Sequence record: OZ035771.1
Source: Phapecoctavirus DIJ07P2
DNA: 64,000 nt
Direction: 5' to 3' (one strand)
Notes under the pieces: generated by a model
The model's input: the letters and a program-made list of their open reading frames with translations, nothing else
Database searches by the model: none
Told to the model about the DNA's origin: nothing
Shown: one piece after another, positions 1,357 to 12,690 of the stretch
How the letters are laid out: every line of letters begins with the position of its first letter
Numbering within the stretch: the stretch's first letter is position 1
Made by a program: the position numbers and the translations under genes

Positions 1357-1412
1357 TATTTTAACTTTTTTCATTTTTAGAACAAAGGTGTCACTTTGTA
1401 GCACAGAAATAA

Positions 1413-1447
1413 GGCTCCTACAGCACCGTAGAGAGCCTATTATTTTG
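1413..1447 (+). terminator. rho-independent terminator after NADAR gene
   Basis: nested hairpin GGCTC-CTAC..GTAG-GAGCC followed by T-rich tract. Confidence 0.5.
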
Positions 1448-1598
1448 TCCTATACAAACCCTTGTCTTTTTCAGTTTGCATCACTAGGATTCGATCTGAG
1501 TGGGTTCCTGAAGGTCTGCCAATAAGATTAAAGGTTATCTCAAATTCCCACTACCTATTATCTCAAAAATCCCTCAAATTATTTAAACTTTTTAAGAA

Positions 1599-1784
1599 TT
1601 TACAAAAGTGAAAGTTGAAAACCAAAATTTAAAGTTTAGGAAAATTATCTTAAAATGTCAGATACAAAACAAAACTCAAAAGTCAAGGAAAATTTTAAAA
1701 ATTTTGCGCGCCCACAGTATTTAAAGTTTTTTTGCTTTTACAAAAATGAAAGTACAAAAGCAAAATTTAAAGTTTACAAAAATT
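1599..1784. repeat. two ~47-bp AT-rich direct repeats
   Basis: TTACAAAAGTGAAAGTTGAAAACCAAAATTTAAAGTTTAGGAAAATT (1599-1646) vs TTACAAAAATGAAAGTACAAAAGCAAAATTTAAAGTTTACAAAAATT (1737-1784). Confidence 0.55.
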
Positions 1785-1796
1785 TATGCAGATGGG

Positions 1797-1899
1797 AATG
1801 AGAAGAGTTCTCATATGGAAATGCAAATGATAATGATTCGCATTTAGGTTTATAAATGAGATTGATTCTTATTTGATAAGGTAAATGATAATCATTCTC
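1797..1899. promoter_or_regulatory. Fur-box-like operator cluster (two 19-mers plus a palindrome)
   Basis: GCAAATGATAATGATTCGC (1823-1841) and GTAAATGATAATCATTCTC (1881-1899) match GATAATGATAATCATTATC at 14/19 and 16/19; palindrome ATGAGAAgagTTCTCAT at ~1797-1814. Confidence 0.4.
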
Positions 1900-2161
1900 A
1901 TTTAGAGAATGACGCGCAGGGGCGGTGTTTGTCTCGCGCTCCCGTGTCCCCTCGCCATGTAATAAGAATAACAGATCCAGCCAGGAAAGCAAGCGATTAT
2001 TTTATCTTTACATTTCTTTACAAATATATAGCGCCCAGCCTACCGGCGATCAACCTTCCAACCAGCGCCCTGGTATGTTAGCCCCGCCTTTACGCCGTGG
2101 GGGTGGCGCTTCCTCTTCTGTATGTAAAACAGTATAAGCCCGATCCCTGGGCTTGTCAAGA

Positions 2162-2537: not shown

Positions 2538-2595
2538 TTGACGTTCGCCAGGTGGCGGCATAATATTTACCACGTAGGGCGGCAATGGTGCCGCT
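2538..2595 (+). promoter_or_regulatory. early promoter / 5' hairpin cassette 1
   Basis: -35 TTGACG 2538, 17-nt spacer, -10 TAATAT 2561, CACGTAGGGCGG box, stem GCGGC/GCCGC 2578-2595. Confidence 0.6.
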
Positions 2596-2615
2596 CATTA
2601 TTTGGAATTAAGATC

Positions 2616-2813
2616 ATGGCAACATTGCACATTGTGGCGAAAGCTGGACAAATCAACGTAGTAGTAAACGGTTTTACTGAGTTCAGTCATCCCCAGGATG
2701 ATCATGAAACGGTTTTATCTTTCATTGATTCACTGTTAGAAATGGGAGTCATTACAGAAGACCAGCACGCTACAAAATGCAAACGCGTTAATCAGATTGC
2801 AGGAATAGAATAA
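2616..2813 (+). CDS. hypothetical small protein (65 aa)
   Basis: track ORF 2538..2813 trimmed to ATG 2616 downstream of the cassette. Confidence 0.55.
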   Translation: MATLHIVAKAGQINVVVNGFTEFSHPQDDHETVLSFIDSLLEMGVITEDQHATKCKRVNQIAGIE

Positions 2814-2819
2814 AAAGTA

Positions 2820-2878
2820 TTGACAACAACCAACAACCTGATAAGATGTATCACATAAGGCGGGAAATGGTTTCCCGC
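2820..2878 (+). promoter_or_regulatory. early promoter / 5' hairpin cassette 2
   Basis: -35 TTGACA 2820, -10 TAAGAT 2842, CACATAAGGCGGG box, stem GCGGGA/TCCCGC 2860-2878. Confidence 0.6.
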
Positions 2879-2902
2879 TCACAACAGAAGAGAGAAATCA
2901 TC

Positions 2903-3175
2903 ATGGCATCATATAGCGCAACAATGATCGTAGCTGGTACCACTGGTAAACCTATGAGCGGTGGCGGATCTTTCGCTAATATTAATATTGATGGGCGTTT
3001 ATCCCTGGACGCAGCGATCACCGTGGCGCGGGAAACATTTAAGAAAGAATGTGATTTCAACAAGCAAGATTATTTAGGTTTTGCTATTGAAAAAACGGCG
3101 CGTTTTGTTGATTATAAAAGTCCGAAAATGGTTGATACTACACTAAAAGCGCAAGATGTAGCCTTTTTGCTTTAA
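2903..3175 (+). CDS. hypothetical small protein (90 aa)
   Basis: ATG 2903 after conserved ACAACAGAAGAGAGAAATCATC leader; track ORF 2846..3175 trimmed. Confidence 0.6.
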   Translation: MASYSATMIVAGTTGKPMSGGGSFANINIDGRLSLDAAITVARETFKKECDFNKQDYLGFAIEKTARFVDYKSPKMVDTTLKAQDVAFLL

Positions 3176-3178
3176 GGC

Positions 3179-3233
3179 TTGACATTAACGAATAATTTGT
3201 TAATATGTTACATAAAGCGGGAACTATTCCCGC
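3179..3233 (+). promoter_or_regulatory. early promoter / 5' hairpin cassette 3
   Basis: -35 TTGACA 3179, -10 TAATAT 3201, stem GCGGGA/TCCCGC 3217-3233. Confidence 0.55.
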
Positions 3234-3251
3234 TATTTGTAAGGTGGTAGA

Positions 3252-3509
3252 ATGTTTTACATCAAATTAAAAGGTCACGTGATCGCGTTCAAGGATAACG
3301 CTTTTTACAGATTAGCAAAATATGCGTTAATACATCCCCATTATGTTTATATAAGGGGGCGTGATGAAATAAATATCTTTGATCAAACAACATGCGAGAA
3401 CATCGAGATCCGCAAGGTTGGCGTACGTGACTATCGTACATCTTTCTACCCTTGCAAGGATTCAGCAAGTCTTTTTAAAGTATGCCAATTGTTGAAAAAA
3501 GGTGGTTAA
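3252..3509 (+). CDS. hypothetical protein (85 aa)
   Basis: track ORF; GGTGG RBS. Confidence 0.6.
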   Translation: MFYIKLKGHVIAFKDNAFYRLAKYALIHPHYVYIRGRDEINIFDQTTCENIEIRKVGVRDYRTSFYPCKDSASLFKVCQLLKKGG

Positions 3510-3510
3510 T

Positions 3511-4068
3511 ATGGGCCGCGAATATGTGATCCAGTCTTGGGTAAAACATGAAGCAGATGATCCGCGCATCATTCCTGATTATCTTGTCGATGAATCCACG
3601 GGCTATAGCGGGGAGCAAATAGGTAACAGATTAGCACGTAGTAACGGCAACGTAAAAGCGCGTTATGTGCGCCCTGGCTGGCTGGCAAATGGTAACGCTG
3701 ATTTATCCAGTGCGGAAGATGCGAGCGACGGCGCGAAAGATAATCCTTTGTACAAAGTTGATCCGGCTTTTCGTGTCCTGGATGAATACCCCAGCAAGAT
3801 AGCGGCGCTCGATCAGGCCCTGGAAAGTAAGCGCATCACCTGGACCGCTTACAACATGGCAAAAAACGTACTTGATGGTAAATTGATTCAAGCTGAAAGA
3901 AAATTAGCCAAAATTGCAGCCATAGCCCAGGAGGAAGACGAGGAGACAACGGAAGAGGAAGAGTACGAAGAGATCCCGCCGTTGTTGTGTGTTGATGCTT
4001 TTCCTGATTATCAGCCGACAGAGGAAGAAAAAAGGATCGCACTAGAAAACTTTGAAAATAGTCTTTGA
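3511..4068 (+). CDS. hypothetical protein with acidic C-terminus (185 aa)
   Basis: track ORF 3502..4068 trimmed to ATG 3511 (AAGGTGG 5 nt upstream); C-terminal EEDEETTEEEEYEE. Confidence 0.55.
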   Translation: MGREYVIQSWVKHEADDPRIIPDYLVDESTGYSGEQIGNRLARSNGNVKARYVRPGWLANGNADLSSAEDASDGAKDNPLYKVDPAFRVLDEYPSKIAALDQALESKRITWTAYNMAKNVLDGKLIQAERKLAKIAAIAQEEDEETTEEEEYEEIPPLLCVDAFPDYQPTEEEKRIALENFENSL

Positions 4069-4122
4069 CATATCGCCGCCACTGGCATAATATTTACCAC
4101 GTAGGGCGGCAATGGTGCCGCT
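4065..4122 (+). promoter_or_regulatory. early promoter / 5' hairpin cassette 4
   Basis: -35 TTGACA 4065 overlapping previous stop, -10 TAATAT 4088, stem GCGGC/GCCGC. Confidence 0.6.
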
Positions 4123-4150
4123 CATAGTGAAATTATGCAAGAGGCTTACA

Positions 4151-4246
4151 ATGATTAATAAAGGAAATAGCTTGACGGTTGGAACGATTAACGCTATCAT
4201 TCTCGCCGTTCCATTTTGGGTTGTAGTAGCGGCTATTATTTTCTAA
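4151..4246 (+). CDS. hydrophobic micro-protein (31 aa, single TM helix)
   Basis: ATG 4151 after AGAGG; MINKGNSLTVGTINAIILAVPFWVVVAAIIF; below 60-aa track cutoff. Confidence 0.45.
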   Translation: MINKGNSLTVGTINAIILAVPFWVVVAAIIF

Positions 4247-4255
4247 AAAATATTC

Positions 4256-4316
4256 TTGACAACGTTTTTTAATCTGATAAGATGTATCACATAGGGCGGC
4301 GGAATACTTCCCCGCC
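4256..4316 (+). promoter_or_regulatory. early promoter / 5' hairpin cassette 5
   Basis: -35 TTGACA 4256, -10 TAAGAT 4278, stem GGCGGCGG/CCCCGCC. Confidence 0.6.
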
Positions 4317-4337
4317 AAAACAAAAAAGGGTAACACA

Positions 4338-4700
4338 ATGAGCAAGCAAATCAATACTATCATGTTTAATCTGGTATCTTTCCGCGATGATATGAAAAAT
4401 TTACCACGTGAAACGGTTGATATTCATGTTTCAGCTTATCGCGCCCTTATTGACATGTTACCGCTAAAACGTGATCAACATGCCGCTAATATGATGCTTA
4501 ATGCTATGCTTAAAAAGATGATTCAAACGGATCTCACCCTGGCATATGAGTATCAAGGGCGCTTATATGCAAATTACAACAGAGCGGTACCTGGTCTGGG
4601 AAGTACTGAAGAGTTGCACGGCTTAAACCTGGATCAAAACACTTGGGATAGTATGCGCCGCGTTATGGTATGGGCCGAAAGCGGTAAAATTTACGAATAA
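4338..4700 (+). CDS. hypothetical protein (120 aa)
   Basis: track ORF directly downstream of cassette 5. Confidence 0.6.
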   Translation: MSKQINTIMFNLVSFRDDMKNLPRETVDIHVSAYRALIDMLPLKRDQHAANMMLNAMLKKMIQTDLTLAYEYQGRLYANYNRAVPGLGSTEELHGLNLDQNTWDSMRRVMVWAESGKIYE

Positions 4701-4706
4701 AAACGG

Positions 4707-4763
4707 TTGACACTGTTTTTTATTCTGGTATAGTTTATCACGTAGGGCGGCAATGGTGCCGCC
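4707..4763 (+). promoter_or_regulatory. early promoter / 5' hairpin cassette 6
   Basis: -35 TTGACA 4707, -10 TATAGT 4729, stem GCGGC/GCCGC. Confidence 0.6.
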
Positions 4764-4783
4764 AACAATAAAAGGTTAACATC

Positions 4784-4963
4784 ATGACCATCATTGCAAA
4801 AACTGAGATTATAGGTTTAGATTCGATCCTCCTGGCTTATGAGGAAACTTTAAAAATGTATGTAGTGACCTATGGTGATTATGTGCGTGAATACGAATAC
4901 ATTGATCTTGCTTTCGAATGTTACATTCGCCAGGTCAATAAAGCCTATAACGATTATCGTTAA
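4784..4963 (+). CDS. hypothetical micro-protein (59 aa)
   Basis: ATG 4784 after AAAGG; 60 codons; below track cutoff. Confidence 0.5.
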   Translation: MTIIAKTEIIGLDSILLAYEETLKMYVVTYGDYVREYEYIDLAFECYIRQVNKAYNDYR

Positions 4964-4982
4964 AAGTTTTAGTCTTATACTA

Positions 4983-5034
4983 TTGACAATGAGTGATAGT
5001 ATAAGCATAATAACTTTTATCGGGAATACTTCCC
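4983..5034 (+). promoter_or_regulatory. early promoter / weak hairpin cassette 7
   Basis: -35 TTGACA 4983; short stem GGGAA/TTCCC 5021-5034. Confidence 0.45.
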
Positions 5035-5059
5035 ACTAACCAAAAAAGAGAGTAATATC

Positions 5060-5425
5060 ATGGCTATTAATATCAATGTTTCCTCTTATGCTACCCTGGC
5101 TGACACGGCTAAAATTGAATTATCCAGCATTGAGGCGGTGCATATTAGCGCCCGTCGTTGGTTTCAACAGTCCTACGGTAACACATATTTTTCTTTAATG
5201 GTTGACGTTGAGATCGGCGGTAAACTGATCGAGGTGGTTAACGTTCCGTTTCAATATGGTTATGGTGATCATTTTGATACCGTCGCCCTGGAAGAATTTA
5301 GCAAGGTTATTAATATGGAAGGTAAAGAGTTTTCACGCGGCGCGTATCTTTCCCGTTTTTGCCGTGATAATGGGATCACTGTATACAGTCATGCGAGCGA
5401 TGTTAAACGTAAAAAAGATTTATAA
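5060..5425 (+). CDS. hypothetical protein (121 aa)
   Basis: track ORF; conserved leader and ATG-GCT start. Confidence 0.6.
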   Translation: MAININVSSYATLADTAKIELSSIEAVHISARRWFQQSYGNTYFSLMVDVEIGGKLIEVVNVPFQYGYGDHFDTVALEEFSKVINMEGKEFSRGAYLSRFCRDNGITVYSHASDVKRKKDL

Positions 5426-5431
5426 AAAGCA

Positions 5432-5490
5432 TTGACAGCACGAATAAAAAGAGTAAACTGTATTACATAGAGAGCGGGAACACTTCCCGC
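5432..5490 (+). promoter_or_regulatory. early promoter / 5' hairpin cassette 8
   Basis: -35 TTGACA 5432, -10 TAAACT ~5455, stem GCGGGAA/TTCCCGC. Confidence 0.55.
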
Positions 5491-5515
5491 CTCACTGAAA
5501 AAAGAGATTAACATC

Positions 5516-5755
5516 ATGGCTAAATCAAAAATGTTCTTAGGTCACAAAAATAAAACTCATTGGAATGTAAGCCTTTGGATTAATAACGATGAATCGTTAT
5601 ATCGGTTGGCGAAAGAATTTATCGCCGCTAATACTAATCGTAATGATGCTGCCCGTGATATGATGTTATTCCTGGAACAAACTGGACAAGATAAAACTCC
5701 AGACGGTTTCAAGTATAGCACTACAGCGATCCGCGCCGCGATGGTTGGAATGTAA
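5516..5755 (+). CDS. hypothetical protein (79 aa)
   Basis: track ORF. Confidence 0.6.
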   Translation: MAKSKMFLGHKNKTHWNVSLWINNDESLYRLAKEFIAANTNRNDAARDMMLFLEQTGQDKTPDGFKYSTTAIRAAMVGM

Positions 5756-5768
5756 AGGAGATATAAAA

Positions 5769-5849
5769 ATGAAACATCGTTCTACCTATCTAACAAAACG
5801 TTTTAGCTTAGATCATAAATTGGGCTATTACGGAAGAAATAGAAAATAA
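5769..5849 (+). CDS. possible micro-ORF (26 aa)
   Basis: ATG 5769 with strong AAGGAG 7 nt upstream. Confidence 0.3.
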   Translation: MKHRSTYLTKRFSLDHKLGYYGRNRK

Positions 5850-5850
5850 T

Positions 5851-5910
5851 TTGACAACGTTTAAAATTAGTGTAAGATGTATCACATAGGGCGGGAAGTG
5901 GTTTCCCGCC
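5851..5910 (+). promoter_or_regulatory. early promoter / 5' hairpin cassette 9
   Basis: -35 TTGACA 5851, -10 TAAGAT 5873, stem GCGGGAA/TTCCCGC. Confidence 0.6.
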
Positions 5911-5932
5911 AACAACAGAGAGATTAAAGATT

Positions 5933-6160
5933 ATGGCTATCAATATTGTTCGCGTATCCGGCACCGTTGGCACTTCCCAAGTTATTGCAGTTGTAACAAA
6001 CAAAAAGATTAATGATGTATGTGAAAGCTTGAATAAGTGGGCTATTGTTAATTTTGGGGAATATGCAAGCGTCGAGTACATCGAATCCTACCAGGTGCCA
6101 ACCATCAGCCTAACCGATCTCAACGTTGATCGCTTGTTGTGCCTGGATGAATTAATCTGA
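5933..6160 (+). CDS. hypothetical protein (75 aa)
   Basis: track ORF. Confidence 0.6.
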   Translation: MAINIVRVSGTVGTSQVIAVVTNKKINDVCESLNKWAIVNFGEYASVEYIESYQVPTISLTDLNVDRLLCLDELI

Positions 6161-6170
6161 AAAAAGATTG

Positions 6171-6227
6171 TTGACACCGGAAAGAAAAAGAGTAGAATAT
6201 ATTACATAGGGCGGCAATGGTGCCGCT
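6171..6227 (+). promoter_or_regulatory. early promoter / 5' hairpin cassette 10
   Basis: -35 TTGACA 6171, -10 TAGAAT 6194, stem GCGGC/GCCGC. Confidence 0.6.
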
Positions 6228-6251
6228 CACAACAGAAGAGAGATTATCACG

Positions 6252-6467
6252 ATGGCTAATATCCGCACTTTACTGAAAAATGCAAGTCAAGTTTTATTTT
6301 CAGATGATGAGTATTTCAATAAAGACATTACAGGCGTGAAAAATTTAAAAGACGTGAAGGATGTTATCGGTATTCGTGGATCTTTACGTAAAGGTGACTA
6401 CTATGGTAACAAGGTGCAATATAAACTGTCAAAGGATTACAATTTTACTTTGACAATTATTTCATAA
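6252..6467 (+). CDS. hypothetical protein (71 aa)
   Basis: track ORF. Confidence 0.6.
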   Translation: MANIRTLLKNASQVLFSDDEYFNKDITGVKNLKDVKDVIGIRGSLRKGDYYGNKVQYKLSKDYNFTLTIIS

Positions 6468-6473
6468 AACCGC

Positions 6474-6536
6474 TTGCAATACTGCAAAAATAAAGTAAAC
6501 TGTATTCATCAAGGCGGTGGAATAGCCAACCGCCTA
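6474..6536 (+). promoter_or_regulatory. early promoter / 5' hairpin cassette 11
   Basis: -35 TTGCAA 6474, -10 TAAACT ~6497, stem AGGCGGT/ACCGCCT. Confidence 0.5.
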
Positions 6537-6558
6537 ACAAAGAGAAGAGGAAAACATC

Positions 6559-6726
6559 ATGATCACTTTCGCTACCCGTGAAGCCGCTCGCAACGTTGCA
6601 CGTAAAGTTAACGCCGCCAACCTGGGCGCTACGCTTAAAGCTCCGGTAAAAGATGAATCAGGCAAATGGATCTTCCCTGGTCTGCGTCATGCTGACAAGT
6701 TAGGTACTTTAAGCCTTAAAAAATAA
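6559..6726 (+). CDS. hypothetical basic micro-protein (55 aa)
   Basis: ATG 6559 after AGAGGAAAAC leader; below track cutoff. Confidence 0.5.
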   Translation: MITFATREAARNVARKVNAANLGATLKAPVKDESGKWIFPGLRHADKLGTLSLKK

Positions 6727-6729
6727 TCG

Positions 6730-6766
6730 TTGACTTTTCGTTATAGCGCCTTACAATGGGCGCTAT
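6730..6766 (+). promoter_or_regulatory. early promoter / hairpin cassette 12 (-10 inside the loop)
   Basis: -35 TTGACT 6730, -10 TACAAT 6752 lying in the loop of stem TAGCGCC/GGCGCTA. Confidence 0.45.
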
Positions 6767-6801
6767 AGAGAAGAGAAACCACTACTAACAAGGAAACCAT
6801 T

Positions 6802-7023
6802 ATGATCACTTTCGCTATTGTCGCCGTTGTTGCTGGTCAAGTTTACGTAAATGAGACATTTACTACAGAAGACAAGGCAGCAGGAGATATAACCGCCGTT
6901 TACAATGAGTGCAAGGCAGTAGAAAGGATGTTAGCGCCTTGTATGCTAATGAGTGAACGCCAGGACGGAATAACAGTATTTACTAACATTGGAACAGGGT
7001 ACCAAATGGTAGTAACAAAATAA
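6802..7023 (+). CDS. hypothetical protein (73 aa)
   Basis: track ORF. Confidence 0.55.
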   Translation: MITFAIVAVVAGQVYVNETFTTEDKAAGDITAVYNECKAVERMLAPCMLMSERQDGITVFTNIGTGYQMVVTK

Positions 7024-7026
7024 AGC

Positions 7027-7083
7027 TTGACACCGATTTAATTTTTAGTAAACTGTTACACGTAGGGCGGGAATAGTTCCCGC
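7027..7083 (+). promoter_or_regulatory. early promoter / 5' hairpin cassette 13
   Basis: -35 TTGACA 7027, -10 TAAACT 7049, stem GCGGGA/TCCCGC 7067-7083. Confidence 0.6.
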
Positions 7084-7102
7084 TCAAAAAGAGAGAAAGA
7101 TC

Positions 7103-7456
7103 ATGAAAGCACAAAATGCAATTAAAGAGTACATCCTTGCCGCTATCGGTTTTAATGATTACGGTATTACAACAGAAAAAGAGAAGATCGCGGAATTGAT
7201 GCGCCGTTTTAATTCCGAGTACTGGTACCCTGATAACCAATCACGTTTTAATTATAGTATTGTTAAAGCACTTGCATCATGGTTACAAGGTTTGCCATCA
7301 GATATTAATATCGCTTTCGAATATTGGGAAGTGGATCGCTTGTTAACATCCTGGGGATACATTAAAGAGAATAGCAGCGATGATAAAATCCAACGAGAAA
7401 GGGAAAATTATTGGCTTTATATTGCAGGCGTGATCCTTGCTTGCTCTTATGAATGA
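7103..7456 (+). CDS. hypothetical protein (117 aa)
   Basis: track ORF. Confidence 0.6.
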   Translation: MKAQNAIKEYILAAIGFNDYGITTEKEKIAELMRRFNSEYWYPDNQSRFNYSIVKALASWLQGLPSDINIAFEYWEVDRLLTSWGYIKENSSDDKIQRERENYWLYIAGVILACSYE

Positions 7457-7462
7457 TAAACC

Positions 7463-7516
7463 TTGACAATTTTACAAAACAGTTTAAATTAACAATATAG
7501 CGGCAATGGTGCCGCT
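7463..7516 (+). promoter_or_regulatory. early promoter / 5' hairpin cassette 14
   Basis: -35 TTGACA 7463; stem AGCGGC/GCCGCT 7499-7516. Confidence 0.5.
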
Positions 7517-7535
7517 CATATAAAGAGGAAACAAA

Positions 7536-7682
7536 ATGAATACATCTAATCGCGCAGAAAAAATTCAATCTTCCAAGATCCGCAAGGCCTGGAACGAGGA
7601 AGTGATCCGCAAAGGCGACAAGCGTAATAAAACAAAGCGCGGGAAGAGTGACAAATATAATTGGATGGATTTAGAGGATTAA
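7536..7682 (+). CDS. basic micro-protein (48 aa)
   Basis: ATG 7536 after AAGAGGAAAC; lysine/arginine-rich; below track cutoff. Confidence 0.5.
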   Translation: MNTSNRAEKIQSSKIRKAWNEEVIRKGDKRNKTKRGKSDKYNWMDLED

Positions 7683-7688
7683 CATAAC

Positions 7689-7716
7689 AAGGGCGCACCA
7701 AGCGCCCTTTCTTTTT
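7689..7716 (+). terminator. rho-independent terminator (conserved hairpin type, copy 1)
   Basis: AAGGGCGCACCAAGCGCCCTT followed by TCTTTTT. Confidence 0.6.
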
Positions 7717-7737
7717 ATATGCAGAGGATAAACAAAG

Positions 7738-7923
7738 ATGACTTTAAACGAGCTTAAAACAGCCTACAACGCAACATTAAAAATAGCCGTGCGTTACCGT
7801 GATGCGTATGGTTTTATCGCGCAGGGCGTGATCCTGGGCTTTTCTGACGATGGTTTGATCTATGTTGATGCACATCACAACAAGGTTAAACCTGAAAACG
7901 TCATTAATATAAAATATCTTTAA
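7738..7923 (+). CDS. hypothetical protein (61 aa)
   Basis: track ORF; AGAGGA RBS. Confidence 0.5.
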   Translation: MTLNELKTAYNATLKIAVRYRDAYGFIAQGVILGFSDDGLIYVDAHHNKVKPENVINIKYL

Positions 7924-7929
7924 AAATGG

Positions 7930-7988
7930 TTGACACCATAACCGGACCTGTTAAACTGTATTACATCAGGCGGGGAATAGTTCCCCAC
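7930..7988 (+). promoter_or_regulatory. early promoter / 5' hairpin cassette 15
   Basis: -35 TTGACA 7930, -10 TAAACT 7952, stem GGGG/CCCC. Confidence 0.5.
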
Positions 7989-8008
7989 CATACAAAAAGG
8001 TAAATATT

Positions 8009-8215
8009 ATGATCACCGCAAAACAAGAAAAAATCATTATCGACGTTGCAGCCGTTGCCGCTATCGCTATTATTGGATCTTATTATGATACCCGTTTCCC
8101 GTCGGCTATGCATGAGGTCGCCGCCGTTGCATCAGTTGGCGTACTGTTTTACGTTGGTAAACGCTATTTATCACCAATGATTAACAAGCTGACACCGTGG
8201 AAAAATAAAGGTTGA
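8009..8215 (+). CDS. small membrane protein (68 aa)
   Basis: track ORF; hydrophobic stretches. Confidence 0.55.
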   Translation: MITAKQEKIIIDVAAVAAIAIIGSYYDTRFPSAMHEVAAVASVGVLFYVGKRYLSPMINKLTPWKNKG

Positions 8216-8266
8216 TCCTGTTTTACATTATGTTATAGTTATCGTGTAGGGCGGCAATGGTGCCGC
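8212..8266 (+). promoter_or_regulatory. early promoter / 5' hairpin cassette 16
   Basis: -35 TTGATC 8212, -10 TATAGT 8234, stem GGCGGC/GCCGC. Confidence 0.5.
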
Positions 8267-8286
8267 GCCCCTTTGAGGATGCAATC

Positions 8287-8571
8287 ATGAGTAAAGCTAA
8301 CACCGTGCTAATGTTTTCCCTGATTAATGATCTCGCTTACTTGTCCAACATGACGCAGGAGGGTAACACATTAACGGCAACATTCACCAATAAGCTTGAC
8401 CGAGTGATCATCGTCTCACTGAAAACAGTTAGTAAAGGCTTTTACTTGTTAGCTTATCATTGTATCACTGATACCGATGAGACAAGCCAGGACTATAGCG
8501 CCCCTTTCCCTGAATCAATGGCACGGGAGATCATCGCCGCCGTTGTAAATGATGGTTTGTTTACTGCATAA
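8287..8571 (+). CDS. hypothetical protein (94 aa)
   Basis: track ORF 8257..8571 trimmed to ATG 8287. Confidence 0.55.
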   Translation: MSKANTVLMFSLINDLAYLSNMTQEGNTLTATFTNKLDRVIIVSLKTVSKGFYLLAYHCITDTDETSQDYSAPFPESMAREIIAAVVNDGLFTA

Positions 8572-8589
8572 AATAATTTAGAAAAAGGC

Positions 8590-8646
8590 TTGCAATCATT
8601 TTGAGATAGTGTATATTTAATTCATAGGGCGGCGGGAATAGTTCCC
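8590..8646 (+). promoter_or_regulatory. early promoter / 5' hairpin cassette 17
   Basis: -35 TTGCAA 8590, -10 TATATT 8612, stem GGGAA/TTCCC. Confidence 0.45.
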
Positions 8647-8669
8647 AAAGCAAACGAGAGGATTACACG

Positions 8670-8789
8670 ATGAGCAAGTACACAGTAGAATACACGGTAG
8701 AGAATCCGGCAGTATCCGAAGGTAAAAAGATGACATTTACCATCAGTATAATCGCTTTCGTTGTCACTATCTTATCAATCATCTTATAA
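8670..8789 (+). CDS. hydrophobic micro-protein (39 aa)
   Basis: ATG 8670 after GAGAGG; C-terminal TM segment; below track cutoff. Confidence 0.45.
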   Translation: MSKYTVEYTVENPAVSEGKKMTFTISIIAFVVTILSIIL

Positions 8790-8799
8790 GGTGCACACC

Positions 8800-8961
8800 A
8801 TGAAAACAACAGATATTATCAAAGAGATCGCCCTTGCCGCTGGCGTTGAGATCGAGGAAGTGATCGCGCTCAATCTTACAGAAAACGATCTGCGCAACTA
8901 TGAAGCGGAAAGCGTGAAAGCAAGTGGCGCGGTCCTGGCATATAATCCGGCTAACAAATAG
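8800..8961 (+). CDS. hypothetical micro-protein (53 aa)
   Basis: track ORF 8761..8961 trimmed to ATG 8800. Confidence 0.45.
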   Translation: MKTTDIIKEIALAAGVEIEEVIALNLTENDLRNYEAESVKASGAVLAYNPANK

Positions 8962-8962
8962 T

Positions 8963-9017
8963 TTGACAAGCTGAATCAACCTGATAAGATGTATCACATA
9001 GGGGCGACAAGCGCCCC
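8963..9017 (+). promoter_or_regulatory. early promoter / 5' hairpin cassette 18
   Basis: -35 TTGACA 8963, -10 TAAGAT 8985, stem GGGGCG/CGCCCC. Confidence 0.6.
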
Positions 9018-9038
9018 GCCTAACAGAGAGATAGAATC

Positions 9039-9317
9039 ATGACCATCGCCAAATTATCCGCCGAAGAAATCGAACAAGTGCTAACTACTAACCTGGAACA
9101 ATGGAAACGTGAGGCAGATATACAATCAGCACAATGGCTTAACGAGAAGTTAACACCGGATGATCTGAGTAAGATTATAGATCCTCAATTCTACGAAGAT
9201 ATTCACGACACCGTTTTAAGCGTCGAGGATGTACTTGATAAGCATTATATTGCTACTGATTTGCAGGTTTACGGGCGTAAAAACTTTATTACTATTCACG
9301 ACATTTACAATAACTAA
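9039..9317 (+). CDS. hypothetical protein (92 aa)
   Basis: track ORF. Confidence 0.6.
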   Translation: MTIAKLSAEEIEQVLTTNLEQWKREADIQSAQWLNEKLTPDDLSKIIDPQFYEDIHDTVLSVEDVLDKHYIATDLQVYGRKNFITIHDIYNN

Positions 9318-9325
9318 GGGATAAC

Positions 9326-9454
9326 ATGAATCCGAAAGATATGCAAGCATGGAAAGGGTACGACGATCTAAGCGCCTTGCGCAATAAGTCAAGCCGTAAC
9401 CTTAGACGGTTAGAAGCAAAGAAAAAGAAAAAACAGTTTGACAAGTCCGCTTAA
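9326..9454 (+). CDS. basic micro-protein (42 aa)
   Basis: ATG 9326 after TAAGGGATAAC; end overlaps next promoter; below track cutoff. Confidence 0.4.
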   Translation: MNPKDMQAWKGYDDLSALRNKSSRNLRRLEAKKKKKQFDKSA

Positions 9455-9494
9455 TCTGGTAAAGTGTATCTCGTAGGGCGGCAATGATGCCGCT
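9438..9494 (+). promoter_or_regulatory. early promoter / 5' hairpin cassette 19
   Basis: -35 TTGACA 9438, -10 TAAAGT 9460, stem GGCGGC/GCCGC (loop AATGAT). Confidence 0.55.
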
Positions 9495-9514
9495 CACAAG
9501 AAGAGAGAAAAATC

Positions 9515-9799
9515 ATGAAGATCACAAAAAGCCTAACTAATTATGCAGCACGTCGCGGATTATGCTTAACCGTTGAAAACTCAGGGAAAGAAGACTTTTT
9601 GTGTTTTTGGGAGCTTGAAAATGATTGCGAGTGGATGTTTTCTTATTCTATCTGCGAAGATCAAAACGGTTGTTTGTTAACCTGGCGCGGTAATATCTAT
9701 TTACCGGAAGAAATTAAAGAAGAGTTACCAGGTACGATCATGACAGAGAGACAGCTTAAGGAAGTGATCAATTTTGTAGGGCAAAACATTAAAAAATAA
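9515..9799 (+). CDS. hypothetical protein (94 aa)
   Basis: track ORF. Confidence 0.6.
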   Translation: MKITKSLTNYAARRGLCLTVENSGKEDFLCFWELENDCEWMFSYSICEDQNGCLLTWRGNIYLPEEIKEELPGTIMTERQLKEVINFVGQNIKK

Positions 9800-9800
9800 T

Positions 9801-9862
9801 TTGACAGCACGCAAACAACGTAGTAAAGTTTACCACATAGGGCGGCGGAATGGTCCACCGCT
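9801..9862 (+). promoter_or_regulatory. early promoter / 5' hairpin cassette 20
   Basis: -35 TTGACA 9801; CACATAGGGCGG box; GC stem ~9841-9862. Confidence 0.55.
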
Positions 9863-9884
9863 CACAACAGAAGAGAAACAAATC

Positions 9885-10055
9885 ATGATCCCGACTATGT
9901 TTTATGTATCGCGCAAAGGTCACAATATTTTTTGGTCTGAAGATTTAAATGAAGCCATGACGTTTGCCCGTGATCGTGTTGCTATCGGTGGCGTTAACAT
10001 CACCGTAACCGATGAAAATGGCATTGAATACTATAACGGCGACGATGAAGAGTAA
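9885..10055 (+). CDS. hypothetical micro-protein (56 aa)
   Basis: track ORF 9801..10055 trimmed to ATG 9885. Confidence 0.5.
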   Translation: MIPTMFYVSRKGHNIFWSEDLNEAMTFARDRVAIGGVNITVTDENGIEYYNGDDEE

Positions 10056-10062
10056 TTAATAA

Positions 10063-10082
10063 GGCGGGGAATACTTCCCGCC
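10063..10082 (+). other. orphan GC hairpin of the cassette type, no promoter
   Basis: GGCGGGGAATACTTCCCGCC directly after a stop codon with no -35/-10 upstream. Confidence 0.5.
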
Positions 10083-10121
10083 ACGCAGTGAATTTTCCGT
10101 TTGGGAAGTAAAAAATAAATC

Positions 10122-10182
10122 TTGACGATAATTTGTTATCTGATAGAATGTATTTCGTAGGGCGGGGCAATAAGGCAAGCCC
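10122..10182 (+). promoter_or_regulatory. early promoter / 5' hairpin cassette 21
   Basis: -35 TTGACG 10122, -10 TAGAAT 10144, TCGTAGGGCGG box. Confidence 0.55.
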
Positions 10183-10199
10183 ACAAAGAGGAAAATAAA

Positions 10200-10568
10200 A
10201 TGAGCAAATCAGCAATTAAAGCACTTGAAAAAGCACAAGAAGTGATCGCAACGTCAACCACTGGCGCAAAGGTTAATCTCGTTTGTTATCTGACAGATGA
10301 AACTATCCGTAAAAATTGGCGTAATGCTGATTTACTGGCTTGCTTATTGATTAATAGTGTCGCTAATGCTTTCCAGTGTGAAACAGCCGAGAGCCTGGAG
10401 GAAAACTTGTTTGATAATATGGATCAAGCCATTGAAACCTATATACAATCAAACCTGGATAGCTGGAACAGTAAAACATGGCCCGACAATTTACGCGATA
10501 CAACTGATCAACTGATCCGCCTTGCCCTGATGGTTGAACGCGATAACGTTTACAACAGCACAAAGTAA
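10200..10568 (+). CDS. hypothetical protein (122 aa)
   Basis: track ORF. Confidence 0.6.
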   Translation: MSKSAIKALEKAQEVIATSTTGAKVNLVCYLTDETIRKNWRNADLLACLLINSVANAFQCETAESLEENLFDNMDQAIETYIQSNLDSWNSKTWPDNLRDTTDQLIRLALMVERDNVYNSTK

Positions 10569-10576
10569 GATTATAC

Positions 10577-10598
10577 AAGGGCGCACTAAGCGCCCTTT
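10577..10598 (+). terminator. terminator-like hairpin (conserved type, copy 2)
   Basis: AAGGGCGCACTAAGCGCCCTT; weak T-tract. Confidence 0.4.
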
Positions 10599-10632
10599 AA
10601 CGTAAAGAAATGTAAATAATGCGCTATCCCTA

Positions 10633-10668
10633 TTGACAGGGGATCGGCGTTATATTATATTTAACTTA
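10633..10668 (+). promoter_or_regulatory. sigma70-like promoter without hairpin
   Basis: TTGACA 10633, 17-nt spacer, TATATT. Confidence 0.45.
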
Positions 10669-10706
10669 CTGGCAGCAAACAACGAAACGAAACAAAGGAC
10701 AACATC

Positions 10707-11126
10707 ATGAACATTAAATCAAATAATCCAGCTTACTCCTTCGATAACGCTTTTTGTCACGGTAGCGCCGCCAAAGGCTTCGAAATCGATGGTAAATTGG
10801 TTATCGTGAACGTTGACGGGGAAGAGGTTGCAGTGTATCCGGTAAACGATGTTAAAAGCCGTTTACAATGCCGCATGGATGTTACCGCATATCAGCTTGA
10901 TCCGGTCCGTGTAGTTGCCCTGGTATTAGAGGAAGAGATCAAAGCAATGCATCACAGTAATAAGTTTATTGGTGACGCGCAGGATAATATGAACGTTTGC
11001 CGCCATAAAGTTAATGAAGCATTGAAAGAATGCGGTTTTAAGGATCTGATGATTAAACGTGATGAAAAATTCCGCTTTCGTAATGACCTGGCAAACCGGA
11101 TCTACTCAATCTATGAAGCTTTATAA
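10707..11126 (+). CDS. hypothetical protein (139 aa)
   Basis: track ORF. Confidence 0.6.
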   Translation: MNIKSNNPAYSFDNAFCHGSAAKGFEIDGKLVIVNVDGEEVAVYPVNDVKSRLQCRMDVTAYQLDPVRVVALVLEEEIKAMHHSNKFIGDAQDNMNVCRHKVNEALKECGFKDLMIKRDEKFRFRNDLANRIYSIYEAL

Positions 11127-11139: not shown

Positions 11140-11169
11140 AAGGGGCGCACAAAGCGCCCTTTCTTTTTG
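11140..11169 (+). terminator. rho-independent terminator (conserved type, copy 3)
   Basis: AAGGGGCGCACAAAGCGCCCTT followed by TCTTTTTG. Confidence 0.6.
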
Positions 11170-11199
11170 CCCGAACAATGTTGATAGCTTTCGCCTATG

Positions 11200-11680
11200 A
11201 AAAACCGACACAGAACAAAACTGAATAAATCGCGGTATCGAGCTAATCAACCAGCAAACGAATAACCATACCTCCCAGGGTTACAGGCTGTTAGAGAGCC
11301 ATTTAGAGCGGTTAAAATCGATCAACAACCAACAACAAACCATCAAAAACACCCTTTTACCTCCTTTCTAGTGCAATGATAACCATTATCATCTACCCAT
11401 GATTATCTATGCAATATAAGCGCATAATTATAATGTTGATAATAGTTCGCAACAACTAACCAACAAACAACATAAAACAATAAGCAAACTAATCATAATC
11501 AAAGGAATAATAGCAAGATGATTGATAACGACAAACAATCGAACCATGATGAATACTAAGCAAGATAACGATAACACGACAAAACAACCAACTAACGAAC
11601 AATAACAAACGAAACCATTAAAATAATAACTATTAGCAAAATAGTGCCTGAATGAAATCATTACAAAACGAATCATTCAC
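11200..11680. repeat. A+C-rich, strand-asymmetric low-complexity tract
   Basis: plus strand dominated by CAA/ACA/AAC repeats with very few G; no credible ORF. Confidence 0.5.
11372..11390. promoter_or_regulatory. Fur-box-like 19-mer
   Basis: TGCAATGATAACCATTATC; 3' 15 nt match Fur consensus at 14/15. Confidence 0.35.
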
Positions 11681-11699
11681 AGAGTCATCATTAGCACGC

Positions 11700-12060
11700 T
11701 ATGCCGGACACATAGCGAGCTAATAATAAGCCAACTACACCCCAACAATCATAACCATCGGTGACGGTTATTTCTTGTTACTGCGTAGCTTGCAATAATT
11801 GCAAGCGTAATGACGCTTACACTTATTGCGCTGGCTTATTATTAGCATTATATGTAATTACCAAGATCATAACATTAGCGCAATAACAATAGTCATTGTA
11901 ATAATTACATGAGTTATCACTATCGTTCAGTGTGATCATCATTAGCACAGTGAATAATTGCACGTAGCAACATGAGCGAATAGCGACAGGTTGCATAGTG
12001 TGCACATAGTGTATAAACATACAAGAAAATAAAGGCTAATCTTTTGGGGGCGAATACTAT
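11700..12060. repeat. cluster of palindromes and inverted repeats
   Basis: GCTAATAATAAGCC (11718) / GGCTTATTATTAGC (11838); CTTGCAAT-A-ATTGCAAG; AGCGT-AATG-ACGCT; ACAAT-AGTC-ATTGT; ATAGTGT direct repeat. Confidence 0.5.
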
Positions 12061-12150
12061 CGCGTAGCGATATGTTGAGCACCTTCTCTTAAACGTAAAT
12101 AAAATCAGAAAATTCTTGATTTATTTTAGTTTTTATGTTAATAAACGTTT

Positions 12151-12169
12151 AAATAATAATCATTCTCAT
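12151..12169. promoter_or_regulatory. Fur-box-like 19-mer
   Basis: AAATAATAATCATTCTCAT, 14/19 to Fur consensus. Confidence 0.3.
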
Positions 12170-12328
12170 ATAAATAATAGTCTGCTTGTCATGAGCGGGA
12201 TTAGTTGACAATGTTCCGTCATATGATGAAGTTGCCAAGCCATTGATAAATAAGTGTTTGTGTGATTTATAATCAGGTGGCCCACCTTGTCGCTATGTTG
12301 GCATGAGCCTTGCATAAGTCATTGAATA

Positions 12329-12350
12329 CGAATGATAATTATTCTCATTC
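12329..12350. promoter_or_regulatory. Fur-box-like palindrome
   Basis: CGAATGATAATTATTCTCATTC, near-perfect palindrome, 14/19 to Fur consensus. Confidence 0.35.
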
Positions 12351-12690
12351 GCATGATATTTGGGAATTGTCGCTGCGTGGACCTGACGGCCCGAAAATTC
12401 GCGTTAAGCACTTCTTACGTATACGCCATGATTTTTGCCATATGATATTGATTCTATTAGATATTCTTGCCATTATTGCCATGAAACATGGTGTCCCGAA
12501 ATAATCTCTCCCCGTAGATATTTTGGGTTACTTTTTATACAAGAGTGGGGTGTCAAAAATAATCAGTATATATGGGATAATTGATAGGAATCCCCTATGA
12601 TAATTCGATTGTAATTCCCTAAGATTGATCGTATGATGTTGGTGATTGATGATTGCCATGAAAGATGGCTAACGATGAGAGGAGATTGTC

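What the first reader, a model, noticed from the sequence alone, without database searches (positions are those of the whole stretch)
2616..11126. About 30 micro-proteins (26-190 aa), each with its own promoter cassette, several invisible to the 60-aa ORF track
Each cassette drives a single tiny ORF. Several with good RBS and cassette context fall below the track cutoff: 4151-4246 (31 aa, TM), 4784-4963 (59 aa), 5769-5849 (26 aa), 6559-6726 (55 aa), 7536-7682 (48 aa, basic), 8670-8789 (39 aa, TM), 9326-9454 (42 aa). None carries a motif I recognise. One-promoter-per-small-gene organisation at the start of an early module is where host-takeover and anti-defence proteins are usually found.
Basis: partly seen in the sequence, partly recalled or inferred. 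Interest (0 to 1): 0.7.

Follow-up and report, generated by a model that had tools for sequence, protein, structure and literature searches.

The report
Early small-gene cassette array of coliphage
This stretch of a phAPEC8-like E. coli phage holds 27 real but uncharacterised small genes packed behind 22 copies of one promoter-plus-hairpin cassette; the layout is a known kind and mostly already annotated, except for a strongly conserved 26-residue peptide that most public annotations miss.

Summary
The window is a Phapecoctavirus (phAPEC8-like, Stephanstirmvirinae), about 96% identical to Escherichia phage Mt1B1_P17. Region 2616-11126 holds 27 plus-strand ORFs (26-185 aa) served by 22 repeated cassettes: A-rich tract, consensus sigma-70 promoter, GC hairpin 1-5 nt after the predicted transcript start, purine-rich ribosome-binding site. 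A strict composite scan finds 13 cassettes against 0.02 expected.

Five ORFs have no cassette of their own.

All seven sub-60-aa ORFs lie at the stated coordinates, and six are already annotated as hypothetical proteins in RefSeq relatives. Most ORFs show purifying selection (dN/dS about 0.05-0.3).

The 26-aa ORF 5769-5849 is unannotated in most genomes. It shows 11 synonymous against 2 conservative replacement changes versus a Klebsiella phage (p = 7e-7).

Two proteins have Pfam families: T7 gp1.1 (7536-7682) and DUF7249 (5516-5755). Nothing matches a known anti-defence or takeover protein.

Gene content is mosaic across four E. coli myovirus lineages, and breakpoints fall in the cassettes. 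This matches the PeSL cassettes of T4-type phages, with the hairpin moved downstream of the -10 box.

Verdict: a real, ordinary early accessory module. The takeover or anti-defence role is plausible but untested.

The parts
2538..2615 (+). cassette 1: TTGACG-17-TAATAT, hairpin GGGCGGCA/TGCCGCTC, SD
   Evidence: shares 42 identical nt with cassette 4065
2616..2813 (+). ORF 65 aa, phrog_23268
   Evidence: dN/dS 0.05
2820..2902 (+). cassette 2
2903..3175 (+). ORF 90 aa, phrog_8099
   Evidence: dN/dS 0.08-0.10
3179..3251 (+). cassette 3 (serves two ORFs)
3252..3509 (+). ORF 85 aa, phrog_17947
3511..4068 (+). ORF 185 aa, acidic C-terminus, no own cassette (start 1 nt after the upstream stop), phrog_16605
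   Evidence: dN/dS 0.08-0.09; no PDB relative
4065..4150 (+). cassette 4
4151..4246 (+). ORF 31 aa, single hydrophobic helix (residues 15-31)
   Evidence: in 108 phage records at 50-100% identity, including phi92; dN/dS 0.24-0.59; no PHROG or Pfam hit
4256..4337 (+). cassette 5
4338..4700 (+). ORF 120 aa, phrog_7352
4707..4783 (+). cassette 6
4784..4963 (+). ORF 59 aa, phrog_9374; predicted four strands plus a C-terminal helix
4983..5059 (+). cassette 7 (weak hairpin, -5.5 kcal/mol)
5060..5425 (+). ORF 121 aa, phrog_6246
5432..5515 (+). cassette 8 (serves two ORFs)
5516..5755 (+). ORF 79 aa, Pfam DUF7249 (PF23907), phrog_871
5769..5849 (+). ORF 26 aa, basic peptide MKHRSTYLTKRFSLDHKLGYYGRNRK; SD AAGGAG; no own cassette
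   Evidence: 36 phage records, mostly unannotated; 11 synonymous vs 2 replacement changes against Klebsiella phage phi1_175008, p = 7e-7; the exact 26-aa sequence is absent from a 15-billion-protein collection
5851..5932 (+). cassette 9
5933..6160 (+). ORF 75 aa, phrog_13850
6171..6251 (+). cassette 10
6252..6467 (+). ORF 71 aa, phrog_12266; a divergent allele (70%) in the closest relatives
6474..6558 (+). cassette 11 (-35 box TTGCAA)
6559..6726 (+). ORF 55 aa, basic, phrog_13689
   Evidence: dN/dS 0.05-0.08; 20 clusters; AF2 pLDDT 74.5, no fold match
6730..6801 (+). cassette 12; its hairpin encloses the -10 box (classical PeSL position)
6802..7023 (+). ORF 73 aa, hydrophobic N-terminus, phrog_25390
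7027..7102 (+). cassette 13
7103..7456 (+). ORF 117 aa, phrog_11100
7463..7535 (+). cassette 14
7536..7682 (+). ORF 48 aa, basic, Pfam PF08200 (T7 gp1.1 family)
   Evidence: 49.8 bits, cutoff 21; T7 gp1.1 itself scores 53.5 bits; shared NKTKR...W motif
7689..7709 (+). intrinsic terminator (8-bp stem, then a T run)
7738..7923 (+). ORF 61 aa, no own cassette, phrog_25271
7930..8008 (+). cassette 15
8009..8215 (+). ORF 68 aa, hydrophobic segments, phrog_30003
8212..8286 (+). cassette 16 (-35 box TTGATC)
8287..8571 (+). ORF 94 aa, phrog_10737
8590..8669 (+). cassette 17 (-35 box TTGCAA; serves two ORFs)
8670..8789 (+). ORF 39 aa, C-terminal hydrophobic helix, phrog_10979 'membrane protein'
8800..8961 (+). 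ORF 53 aa, no own cassette, phrog_35944
8963..9038 (+). cassette 18 (serves two ORFs)
9039..9317 (+). ORF 92 aa, phrog_14947; 45% allele in the closest relatives, 88% in jumbo phage A4
9326..9454 (+). ORF 42 aa, basic, no own cassette, runs into the next -35 box; weakest coding evidence
   Evidence: phrog_31652 (36-aa profile); relatives stop at codon 37; lengths 36-43 aa in public records
9438..9514 (+). cassette 19
9515..9799 (+). ORF 94 aa, phrog_6147
9801..9884 (+). cassette 20
9885..10055 (+). ORF 56 aa, phrog_20874
   Evidence: 4 synonymous, 0 replacement changes
10063..10082 (+). orphan cassette-type hairpin without a promoter, at an indel junction
10122..10199 (+). cassette 21
10200..10568 (+). 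ORF 122 aa, phrog_15368
10577..10597 (+). terminator-type hairpin AAGGGCGC-N5-GCGCCCTT with a weak T tract
   Evidence: read from the sequence
10633..10706 (+). cassette 22: promoter only, no hairpin
10707..11126 (+). ORF 139 aa, phrog_12277; 90% identical in Vequintavirinae
11140..11162 (+). strong intrinsic terminator that closes the module

Best explanation
This is the hyperplastic early accessory-gene module of a phAPEC8-like coliphage. It holds 27 genuine small protein-coding genes behind 22 copies of one compact regulatory cassette. Each cassette begins 1-19 nt after the upstream stop codon in most cases.

A cassette consists of an A-rich UP-like tract, a near-consensus sigma-70 promoter, a 5-10 bp GC hairpin, a purine-rich ribosome-binding site and the ATG.

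Shown here: the cassettes, the reality of the genes, and their mosaic distribution with breakpoints inside cassettes.

Inferred:
1. The unmodified host RNA polymerase fires these promoters immediately after DNA entry, giving mostly mono- or bicistronic early mRNAs.
2. The hairpin lies 1-5 nt from the predicted 5' end. It therefore acts mainly as a 5'-terminal stem-loop that protects the short mRNAs from 5'-end-dependent RNase E/RppH decay. This is the mechanism established for the ompA 5' UTR. It may also attenuate read-through from upstream cassettes.
3. The cassettes share exact tracts of 15-42 nt. These give recombination substrates that insert, delete and swap single-gene units within and between phage lineages, as proposed for PeSL cassettes.
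4. The proteins are dispensable, host-directed effectors such as membrane micro-proteins, basic peptides and small folded domains. Their individual targets are unknown.
For: - Identity of the phage.
- ORFs and ribosome-binding sites.
- Cassettes. The strict composite scan gave 13 observed against 0.02 expected, all on the plus strand.
- Hairpins: 20 of 22 cassettes, -5.5 to -15.3 kcal/mol, median z -3.5, with 1-5 unpaired nt at the predicted 5' end. Only 1 of 20 is followed by a T run.
- A-rich upstream tracts: 75% AT against 59% for the region. The upstream stop lies 1-19 nt before the -35 box in most cassettes.
- Coding evidence: dN/dS about 0.05-0.3 for most ORFs. The 26-aa ORF shows 11 synonymous against 2 replacement changes. 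The 59-aa protein folds at pLDDT 95. Antisense ORFs are broken in relatives.
- Mosaic content: genes are shared patchily with Justusliebigvirus, Vequintavirinae and Asteriusvirus. The same cassette architecture occurs in all of them.
- Breakpoints: synteny breaks against four relatives fall mostly inside cassettes. Cassettes share exact tracts of 15-42 nt.
- Precedent: PeSL cassettes in T4-type phages (PMC2839356, PMC4122927).
Against: - There are no expression data of any kind, so promoter activity, transcript starts and translation are all predicted.
- The transcript start is assumed to lie 7 nt after the -10 box.
- In RB49 the PeSL stem-loop behaved as a strong terminator (PMC2839356), so a terminator or attenuator role here is not excluded.
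- No protein matched a known host-takeover or anti-defence family.
- Coding evidence is thin for 9326-9454 and absent for 8800-8961 in the loci I held, although the latter ranges from 83 to 100% identity across 64 records.
Confidence: 0.72

Rival explanations
1. The hairpins act mainly as transcription attenuators or terminators, as shown for one RB49 PeSL. They insulate each gene from read-through out of upstream cassettes and are not mRNA stabilisers.
For: - The PeSL211/210 stem-loop reduced lacZ expression as strongly as the rrnB T1 terminator (PMC2839356).
- Only three canonical terminators exist in 8.5 kb. Without attenuation, promoter input would accumulate along the array.
- Cassette 6730 has its hairpin around the -10 box, the classical PeSL position.
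Against: - 19 of 20 hairpins lack a following T run.
- They sit downstream of their own promoter, so they would also act on the transcript they head.
- The fixed position 1-5 nt from the predicted 5' end is what a 5' stabiliser needs. A terminator has no such requirement.
Confidence: 0.3
2. Several of the sub-60-aa ORFs are chance reading frames in spacer or UTR sequence and are not translated. The true gene count is lower.
For: - 9326-9454 has only 2 synonymous differences in my loci, a variable stop (36-43 aa forms) and a low-complexity lysine run, and it overlaps the next -35 box.
- 8800-8961 showed no informative substitutions in the loci I held.
- 4151-4246 has a relaxed dN/dS of 0.24-0.59 from few changes.
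Against: - Six of the seven listed ORFs keep their frame and length in diverged relatives.
- The 26-aa ORF has saturated synonymous change with 92% amino-acid identity.
- The 59-, 55- and 48-aa ORFs have dN/dS of at most 0.26, a Pfam family, or a confident fold.
- Antisense ORFs of comparable or greater length are broken in relatives.
Confidence: 0.1
3. The module is not mainly anti-defence or host shut-off. It is a mixed bag of superinfection-exclusion factors, membrane or lysis-timing modifiers and selfish, nearly neutral cassettes kept by recombination.
For: - At least three products are predicted membrane micro-proteins: 4151, 8009 and 8670.
- There was no hit to any known anti-defence family.
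- Presence and absence vary even between 96%-identical phages.
Against: - Purifying selection on nearly all genes argues against neutrality.
- Sharing across four lineages that infect the same host suggests host-specific benefit.
- Nothing here separates exclusion or membrane roles from counter-defence.
Confidence: 0.3

Closest known systems
PeSL (promoter-early stem-loop) cassettes in the hyperplastic regions of T4-type phages (Arbiol et al. 2010, PMC2839356; Comeau et al. 2014, PMC4122927)
   Same: - A repeated intergenic unit of about 80-100 bp: AT-rich tract, consensus sigma-70 promoter, GC stem-loop, Shine-Dalgarno site and start codon.
- Preferential association with small ORFans.
- Indels and replacements between close relatives are bounded by the cassettes.
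   Different: - The host phage is a Stephanstirmvirinae myovirus, not a T4-type phage.
- In 19 of the 20 cassettes that have a hairpin, it lies downstream of the -10 box, at the predicted 5' end of the transcript. In RB49/phi1 it lies mostly between -35 and -10 or over the -10 box.
- The hairpin sequence family (GGGCGGCA..TGCCGC, GGCGGGAA..TTCCCGCC) is different.
- Terminator activity and mini-circle formation have not been tested here.
Early regions of rV5-like phages (Vequintavirinae) and Certrevirus: sigma-70 promoters concentrated among short hypothetical ORFs (PMC3606486, PMC7344957)
   Same: - Large virulent enterobacterial myoviruses without their own RNA polymerase, with consensus E. 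coli promoters clustered in a block of short unknown genes.
- Some of the genes are true homologues of those here: ORFs 4338, 4784, 5516 and 10707 are 69-91% identical in FFH2 or A5-4.
   Different: Those papers list promoters and terminators separately. In the text I read they do not describe a composite promoter-hairpin cassette or cassette-bounded shuffling.
T7 gene 1.1 product (Pfam PF08200) and other small early T7/T4 proteins
   Same: ORF 7536-7682 passes the PF08200 gathering threshold and shares the NKTKR...W motif with T7 gp1.1. Both are basic peptides of about 45 aa from early or middle regions.
   Different: - T7 gp1.1 has no known function, so the match gives a family name but no mechanism.
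- Pairwise BLASTP against T7 gp1.1 is not significant.
   Same: A stable hairpin with no more than a few unpaired nucleotides at the 5' end of the transcript, ahead of the ribosome-binding site.
   Different: The resemblance is purely positional. No half-life data exist for these transcripts.

Membership tests
PeSL cassettes (T4-type phages) | Consensus sigma-70 early promoter in a repeated intergenic motif | tested here: met
   22 sites; 15 have a perfect TTGACA, the spacer is 16-17 nt, and several have an extended -10 TG
PeSL cassettes (T4-type phages) | Stable GC-rich stem-loop within the same motif | tested here: met
   20 of 22 cassettes, -5.5 to -15.3 kcal/mol, median z -3.5 against shuffles
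PeSL cassettes (T4-type phages) | [quoted passage not shown] | tested here: not met
   Only cassette 6730 has this as its main hairpin. Cassettes 2538 and 4065 have an extra spacer hairpin. The other hairpins start about 10 nt after the -10 box
PeSL cassettes (T4-type phages) | AT-rich tract upstream of the -35 box; SD and start codon at the 3' end | tested here: met
   75% AT in the 20 nt upstream, against 59% for the region; SD and ATG in all 22
PeSL cassettes (T4-type phages) | Cassettes flank ORFans and mark indel or replacement breakpoints between related phages | tested here: met
   Most HSP ends against Mt1B1_P17, tuntematon, KMB37 and cardinal lie inside cassettes; mosaic gene table
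PeSL cassettes (T4-type phages) | Stem-loop terminates transcription; recombination between cassettes yields mini-circles | not testable with these tools
   Needs reporter assays and inverse PCR on infected cells
PeSL cassettes (T4-type phages) | Carried by a T4-type (Tevenvirinae-like) genome | tested here: not met
   The window is a Phapecoctavirus, Stephanstirmvirinae
Pfam PF08200 Phage_1_1 (ORF 7536-7682) | HMM score above the gathering threshold over the full model | tested here: met
   49.8 bits against a cutoff of 21, model positions 2-40 of 40; T7 gp1.1 itself scores 53.5 bits. Caveat: basic, low-complexity sequence; pairwise BLASTP is not significant
Pfam PF23907 DUF7249 (ORF 5516-5755) | HMM score above the gathering threshold | tested here: met
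   44.4 bits against a cutoff of 27; all 120 listed homologues carry PF23907
Known phage anti-defence / host-takeover protein families (Ocr, Arn, Dmd, Stp, AsiA, anti-CRISPRs and similar) | Detectable sequence similarity to a characterised member | tested here: not met
   - No such hit for any of the 27 proteins in Pfam, PHROGs or NCBIfam.
- None in PDB sequences for the 7 proteins tried.
- tblastn of the 26-aa peptide at E up to 10 found no T4 locus.
AP2 / integrase-arm-type DNA-binding fold (ORF 4784-4963) | Three- or four-stranded antiparallel sheet packed by a C-terminal helix, with a basic DNA-contacting sheet face | tested here: inconclusive

The most novel reading that the evidence does not exclude
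The promoter-plus-5'-hairpin cassette is a common exchange currency. It lets at least four unrelated E. coli myovirus lineages (Phapecoctavirus, Justusliebigvirus, Vequintavirinae, Asteriusvirus jumbo phages) trade single-gene early effectors. Within this pool, the unannotated 26-aa basic peptide (5769-5849) is a new effector that binds a highly conserved host component. It is always paired with the DUF7249 gene and is more conserved than any neighbouring gene between E. coli and Klebsiella phages.
Probability: 0.3. Interest if true: 0.6.

Novelty: new member of a known kind. Interest (0 to 1): 0.35.

Why it matters
The region is a compact catalogue of 27 selected but uncharacterised early proteins from a phage group widely used in therapy work. 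It is a sensible place to screen for host-takeover or counter-defence activities.

Two points go beyond routine annotation:
- A 26-residue peptide under very strong purifying selection is absent from most public annotations and from a 15-billion-protein collection.
- A PeSL-like cassette with a 5'-terminal hairpin marks recombination junctions and recurs in four coliphage lineages. This could explain how such genes move between them.

Neither point changes current concepts. Both can be tested directly.

Tried and rejected
- Family and structure searches. PHROGs placed 25 of 27 proteins in families, 24 of unknown function and one labelled only 'membrane protein'. Pfam gave two families, both of unknown function. 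NCBIfam gave nothing. PDB sequence searches for seven proteins gave nothing significant.
- Resemblance of the 26-aa peptide to T4 Stp (also 26 aa; Stp sequence recalled from memory). tblastn at E up to 10 found no T4 locus, so this is an analogy of size only.
- Searching for the 26-aa peptide beyond Stephanstirmvirinae. The query is too short for the search for homologous proteins and the search for related loci. I fetched 79 IMG/VR loci holding the neighbouring DUF7249 gene instead. Only one Stephanstirmvirinae-like contig carried the peptide.
- Formal covariation test of the hairpin. MAFFT misaligned the 3' arms because stem lengths differ. I relied on per-sequence folds and on visibly different stems that keep pairing.
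- Literature. I found no transcriptomic, proteomic or functional study of this module in Stephanstirmvirinae, and no mention of PeSLs outside T4-type phages.
- Generic promoter scan. It is only modestly enriched (36 found against 24.8 expected). The signal lies in the high-scoring, same-strand, composite sites.

Full report
WHAT THE WINDOW IS

Megablast of 2616-11126 finds 258 phage records. The best are Escherichia phage Mt1B1_P17 and tuntematon (genus Phapecoctavirus, subfamily Stephanstirmvirinae) at about 96% identity over 96% of the query. The rest of the window matches the same phage group: ribonucleotide reductase, dTDP-sugar genes and a tRNA cluster.

In the RefSeq record NC_052662 the homologous stretch carries 35 annotated genes. 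All are 'hypothetical protein' except one 'membrane protein'.

CHECKING THE OBSERVATION

I defined 27 plus-strand ORFs of 26-185 aa between 2616 and 11126, each preceded by a purine-rich ribosome-binding site. Two further ones were not listed: 8800-8961 (53 aa) and 9885-10055 (56 aa).

There are 22 promoter cassettes:
- 15 have a perfect TTGACA.
- The spacer is 16-17 nt.
- The -10 boxes are of the types TAAGAT, TAAACT, TATAGT and TAATAT.
- Several carry an extended -10 TG.

Twenty cassettes carry a GC hairpin of -5.5 to -15.3 kcal/mol (median z -3.5 against shuffles). The hairpin begins 1-5 nt after a transcript start assumed 7 nt downstream of the -10 box. Cassette 6730 has its hairpin around the -10 box instead. 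Cassette 10633 has none.

The 20 nt upstream of the -35 box are 75% A+T, against 59% for the region. The upstream stop codon lies only 1-19 nt before the -35 box in most cases.

A strict composite scan (promoter, perfect hairpin, ATG) finds 13 sites, all on the plus strand and all inside the region. The mean in 100 dinucleotide-preserving shuffles is 0.02. The array is therefore real and far beyond chance.

'One cassette per ORF' is only approximate. Five ORFs are second genes or follow a terminator: 3511-4068, 5769-5849, 7738-7923, 8800-8961 and 9326-9454.

ARE THE SMALL ORFS GENES?

I fetched eight related loci and later a Klebsiella Stephanstirmvirinae locus. I computed Nei-Gojobori dN/dS against them. 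Nearly all ORFs keep their frame and length and give dN/dS of about 0.05-0.3.

Results for the sub-60-aa set:

| ORF | Size | Evidence |
|---|---|---|
| 4784-4963 | 59 aa | dN/dS 0.09-0.26 in four phage lineages; 27 of 30 protein clusters are 59 aa; AlphaFold model at pLDDT 95.2 with four strands and a C-terminal helix |
| 6559-6726 | 55 aa | dN/dS 0.05-0.08 |
| 7536-7682 | 48 aa | Passes Pfam PF08200, the T7 gene 1.1 family, at 49.8 bits; T7 gp1.1 itself scores 53.5 bits |
| 4151-4246 | 31 aa | Hydrophobic; present in 108 phage records at 50-100% identity, including phi92 |
| 8670-8789 | 39 aa | C-terminal hydrophobic helix; 63 records, down to 49% identity in a Salmonella phage |
| 9326-9454 | 42 aa | Weakest case: very few substitutions, a stop at codon 37 in most relatives, public versions of 36-43 aa |

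As a negative control, antisense ORFs of at least 60 aa acquire stops or indels in the more diverged relatives. Examples are 3703-3891, 4133-4363 and 5803-6081.

THE 26-RESIDUE PEPTIDE

ORF 5769-5849 encodes MKHRSTYLTKRFSLDHKLGYYGRNRK. It lies 13 nt after the DUF7249 gene and has an AAGGAG ribosome-binding site.

- tblastn finds it in 36 records. 35 are Stephanstirmvirinae-type records; the remaining hit is not significant (65% identity, E = 1). Under most hits no feature is annotated.
- The exact 26-aa sequence is not in a 15-billion-protein collection. Only a 34-aa TTG-start version from one GenBank record is there.
- Against Klebsiella phage phi1_175008 the 78 nt differ at 11 synonymous codons but only 2 conservative replacements (F12Y, R25K). 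That is 11.0 of 14.8 synonymous sites against 2.0 of 63.2 non-synonymous sites (binomial p = 7e-7).
- Its 92% identity contrasts with 45-71% for the neighbouring genes in the same pair of phages, and synonymous sites are saturated. The conservation is therefore selection on the peptide, not recent transfer.
- It is absent from Mt1B1_P17 and tuntematon as a clean indel. It is also absent from other phages that carry the DUF7249 gene.

WHAT THE PROTEINS ARE

- PHROGs places 25 of 27 in families. 24 are of unknown function and one is labelled only 'membrane protein'.
- Pfam adds only PF08200 and DUF7249.
- NCBIfam adds nothing.
- PDB sequence searches add nothing.

The 55-aa protein gave no fold match.

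Three or four products are predicted membrane micro-proteins.

DUF7249 homologues also occur near the ends of contigs of about 43 kb and as gene 3 of Escherichia phage PGT2. T7 gene 1.1 lies in the T7 early-to-middle region. This fits an early accessory gene pool. No protein resembles a characterised takeover or anti-defence factor.

EVOLUTIONARY BEHAVIOUR

Gene content is mosaic.
- Some genes are 96-100% identical in Phapecoctavirus relatives while their neighbours are replaced by 45-70% alleles (6252-6467, 9039-9317).
- Others are shared with Justusliebigvirus, Vequintavirinae (A5-4, FFH2) or the 355-kb Asteriusvirus jumbo phage A4.
- The same cassette architecture, with lineage-specific sequence flavours, occurs in all of these.
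- Alignment breakpoints against four relatives fall mostly inside cassettes.
- An orphan hairpin at 10063-10082 sits where relatives carry about 2.6 kb of extra small genes.
- Cassettes share exact tracts of 15-42 nt.

COMPARISON WITH WHAT IS KNOWN

This is the behaviour described for PeSL (promoter-early stem-loop) cassettes in the hyperplastic regions of T4-type phages (PMC2839356, PMC4122927). There are two differences.
- The phage is not T4-type.
- The hairpin lies downstream of the -10 box, at the predicted 5' end of the mRNA, rather than within or over the promoter.

Papers on rV5-like and Certrevirus relatives note sigma-70 promoters clustered among short hypothetical ORFs (PMC3606486, PMC7344957). 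In the library I could search, I found no description of the composite cassette or of this module for Stephanstirmvirinae.

MECHANISM

Shown: the cassettes, the genes, selection on them, and cassette-bounded mosaicism.

Inferred:
- Early transcription by the unmodified host polymerase.
- The hairpin acts as a 5'-terminal stabiliser against 5'-end-dependent decay. Its position fits and 19 of 20 hairpins lack a T run. The ompA precedent is from my own knowledge.
- The hairpin may also attenuate read-through.
- Recombination between cassettes moves single-gene units.
- The proteins have host-directed accessory roles.

VERDICT

It describes an ordinary, largely annotated early ORFan module of a well-sampled phage group, organised like a PeSL array.

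The takeover or anti-defence reading is reasonable but untested.

The strongly constrained, mostly unannotated 26-aa peptide and the cross-lineage 5'-hairpin cassette are the two points worth an experiment.

Noticed in passing
window 11170-12690: An ORF-free, A-rich stretch of about 1.5 kb follows the module's closing terminator. The start of the Mt1B1_P17 GenBank record maps to about window 12370, and the rV5 paper also draws a 'non-coding' box. It may be a genome end or a replication origin.
   Followed up: no
window 1388-2160: The divergent intergenic region upstream of the module holds several repeats: TRF arrays at 1535-1583 and 1825-1906, and two copies of a TTTACAAAA..GTGAAAGT..CAAAATTTAAAGTTT unit at 1599 and 1737.
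   Followed up: no
window 10063-10082: A cassette-type hairpin (GGCGGGGAATACTTCCCGCC) has no promoter. It sits exactly at the junction where Mt1B1_P17 and tuntematon carry about 2.6 kb of additional small genes, so it looks like a recombination scar.
   Followed up: partly
window 6559-6573 and 6802-6816: Two neighbouring, otherwise unrelated ORFs share their first 15 nt (ATGATCACTTTCGCT). Many ORFs start ATGGC or ATGA after 'ATC'. Cassette homology seems to extend into the first codons.
   Followed up: partly
public records MG065650, MG065653, MG065659, MG065682 (hits H59, H63, H69, H160): Records labelled 'Campylobacter phage' match this E. coli phage group and rV5-like phages at 72-95%. They are probably mislabelled or contaminated.
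   Followed up: no
window 6252-6467; L008 5550-5762: The 70-71-aa homologues of this ORF are annotated 'phosphoribosylpyrophosphate synthetase' in several GenBank records. That is far too short for the enzyme and is probably a propagated annotation error.
   Followed up: no
window 5516-5755; loci L010-L088: The DUF7249 protein family is widespread. There are 341 clusters. IMG/VR contigs of about 40-45 kb often carry it within a few kb of a contig end, and it is gene 3 of Escherichia phage PGT2. This suggests an early gene shared with T7-like podophages.
   Followed up: partly
window 45490 and 50976 (minus strand): Two further consensus promoters are followed by a 5' hairpin and an ATG, outside the module, in the minus-strand nucleotide-metabolism block.
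   Followed up: no
window 61424-63822: A cluster of 10 tRNA genes by ARAGORN, with an eleventh by Rfam at 62122-62206.
   Followed up: no
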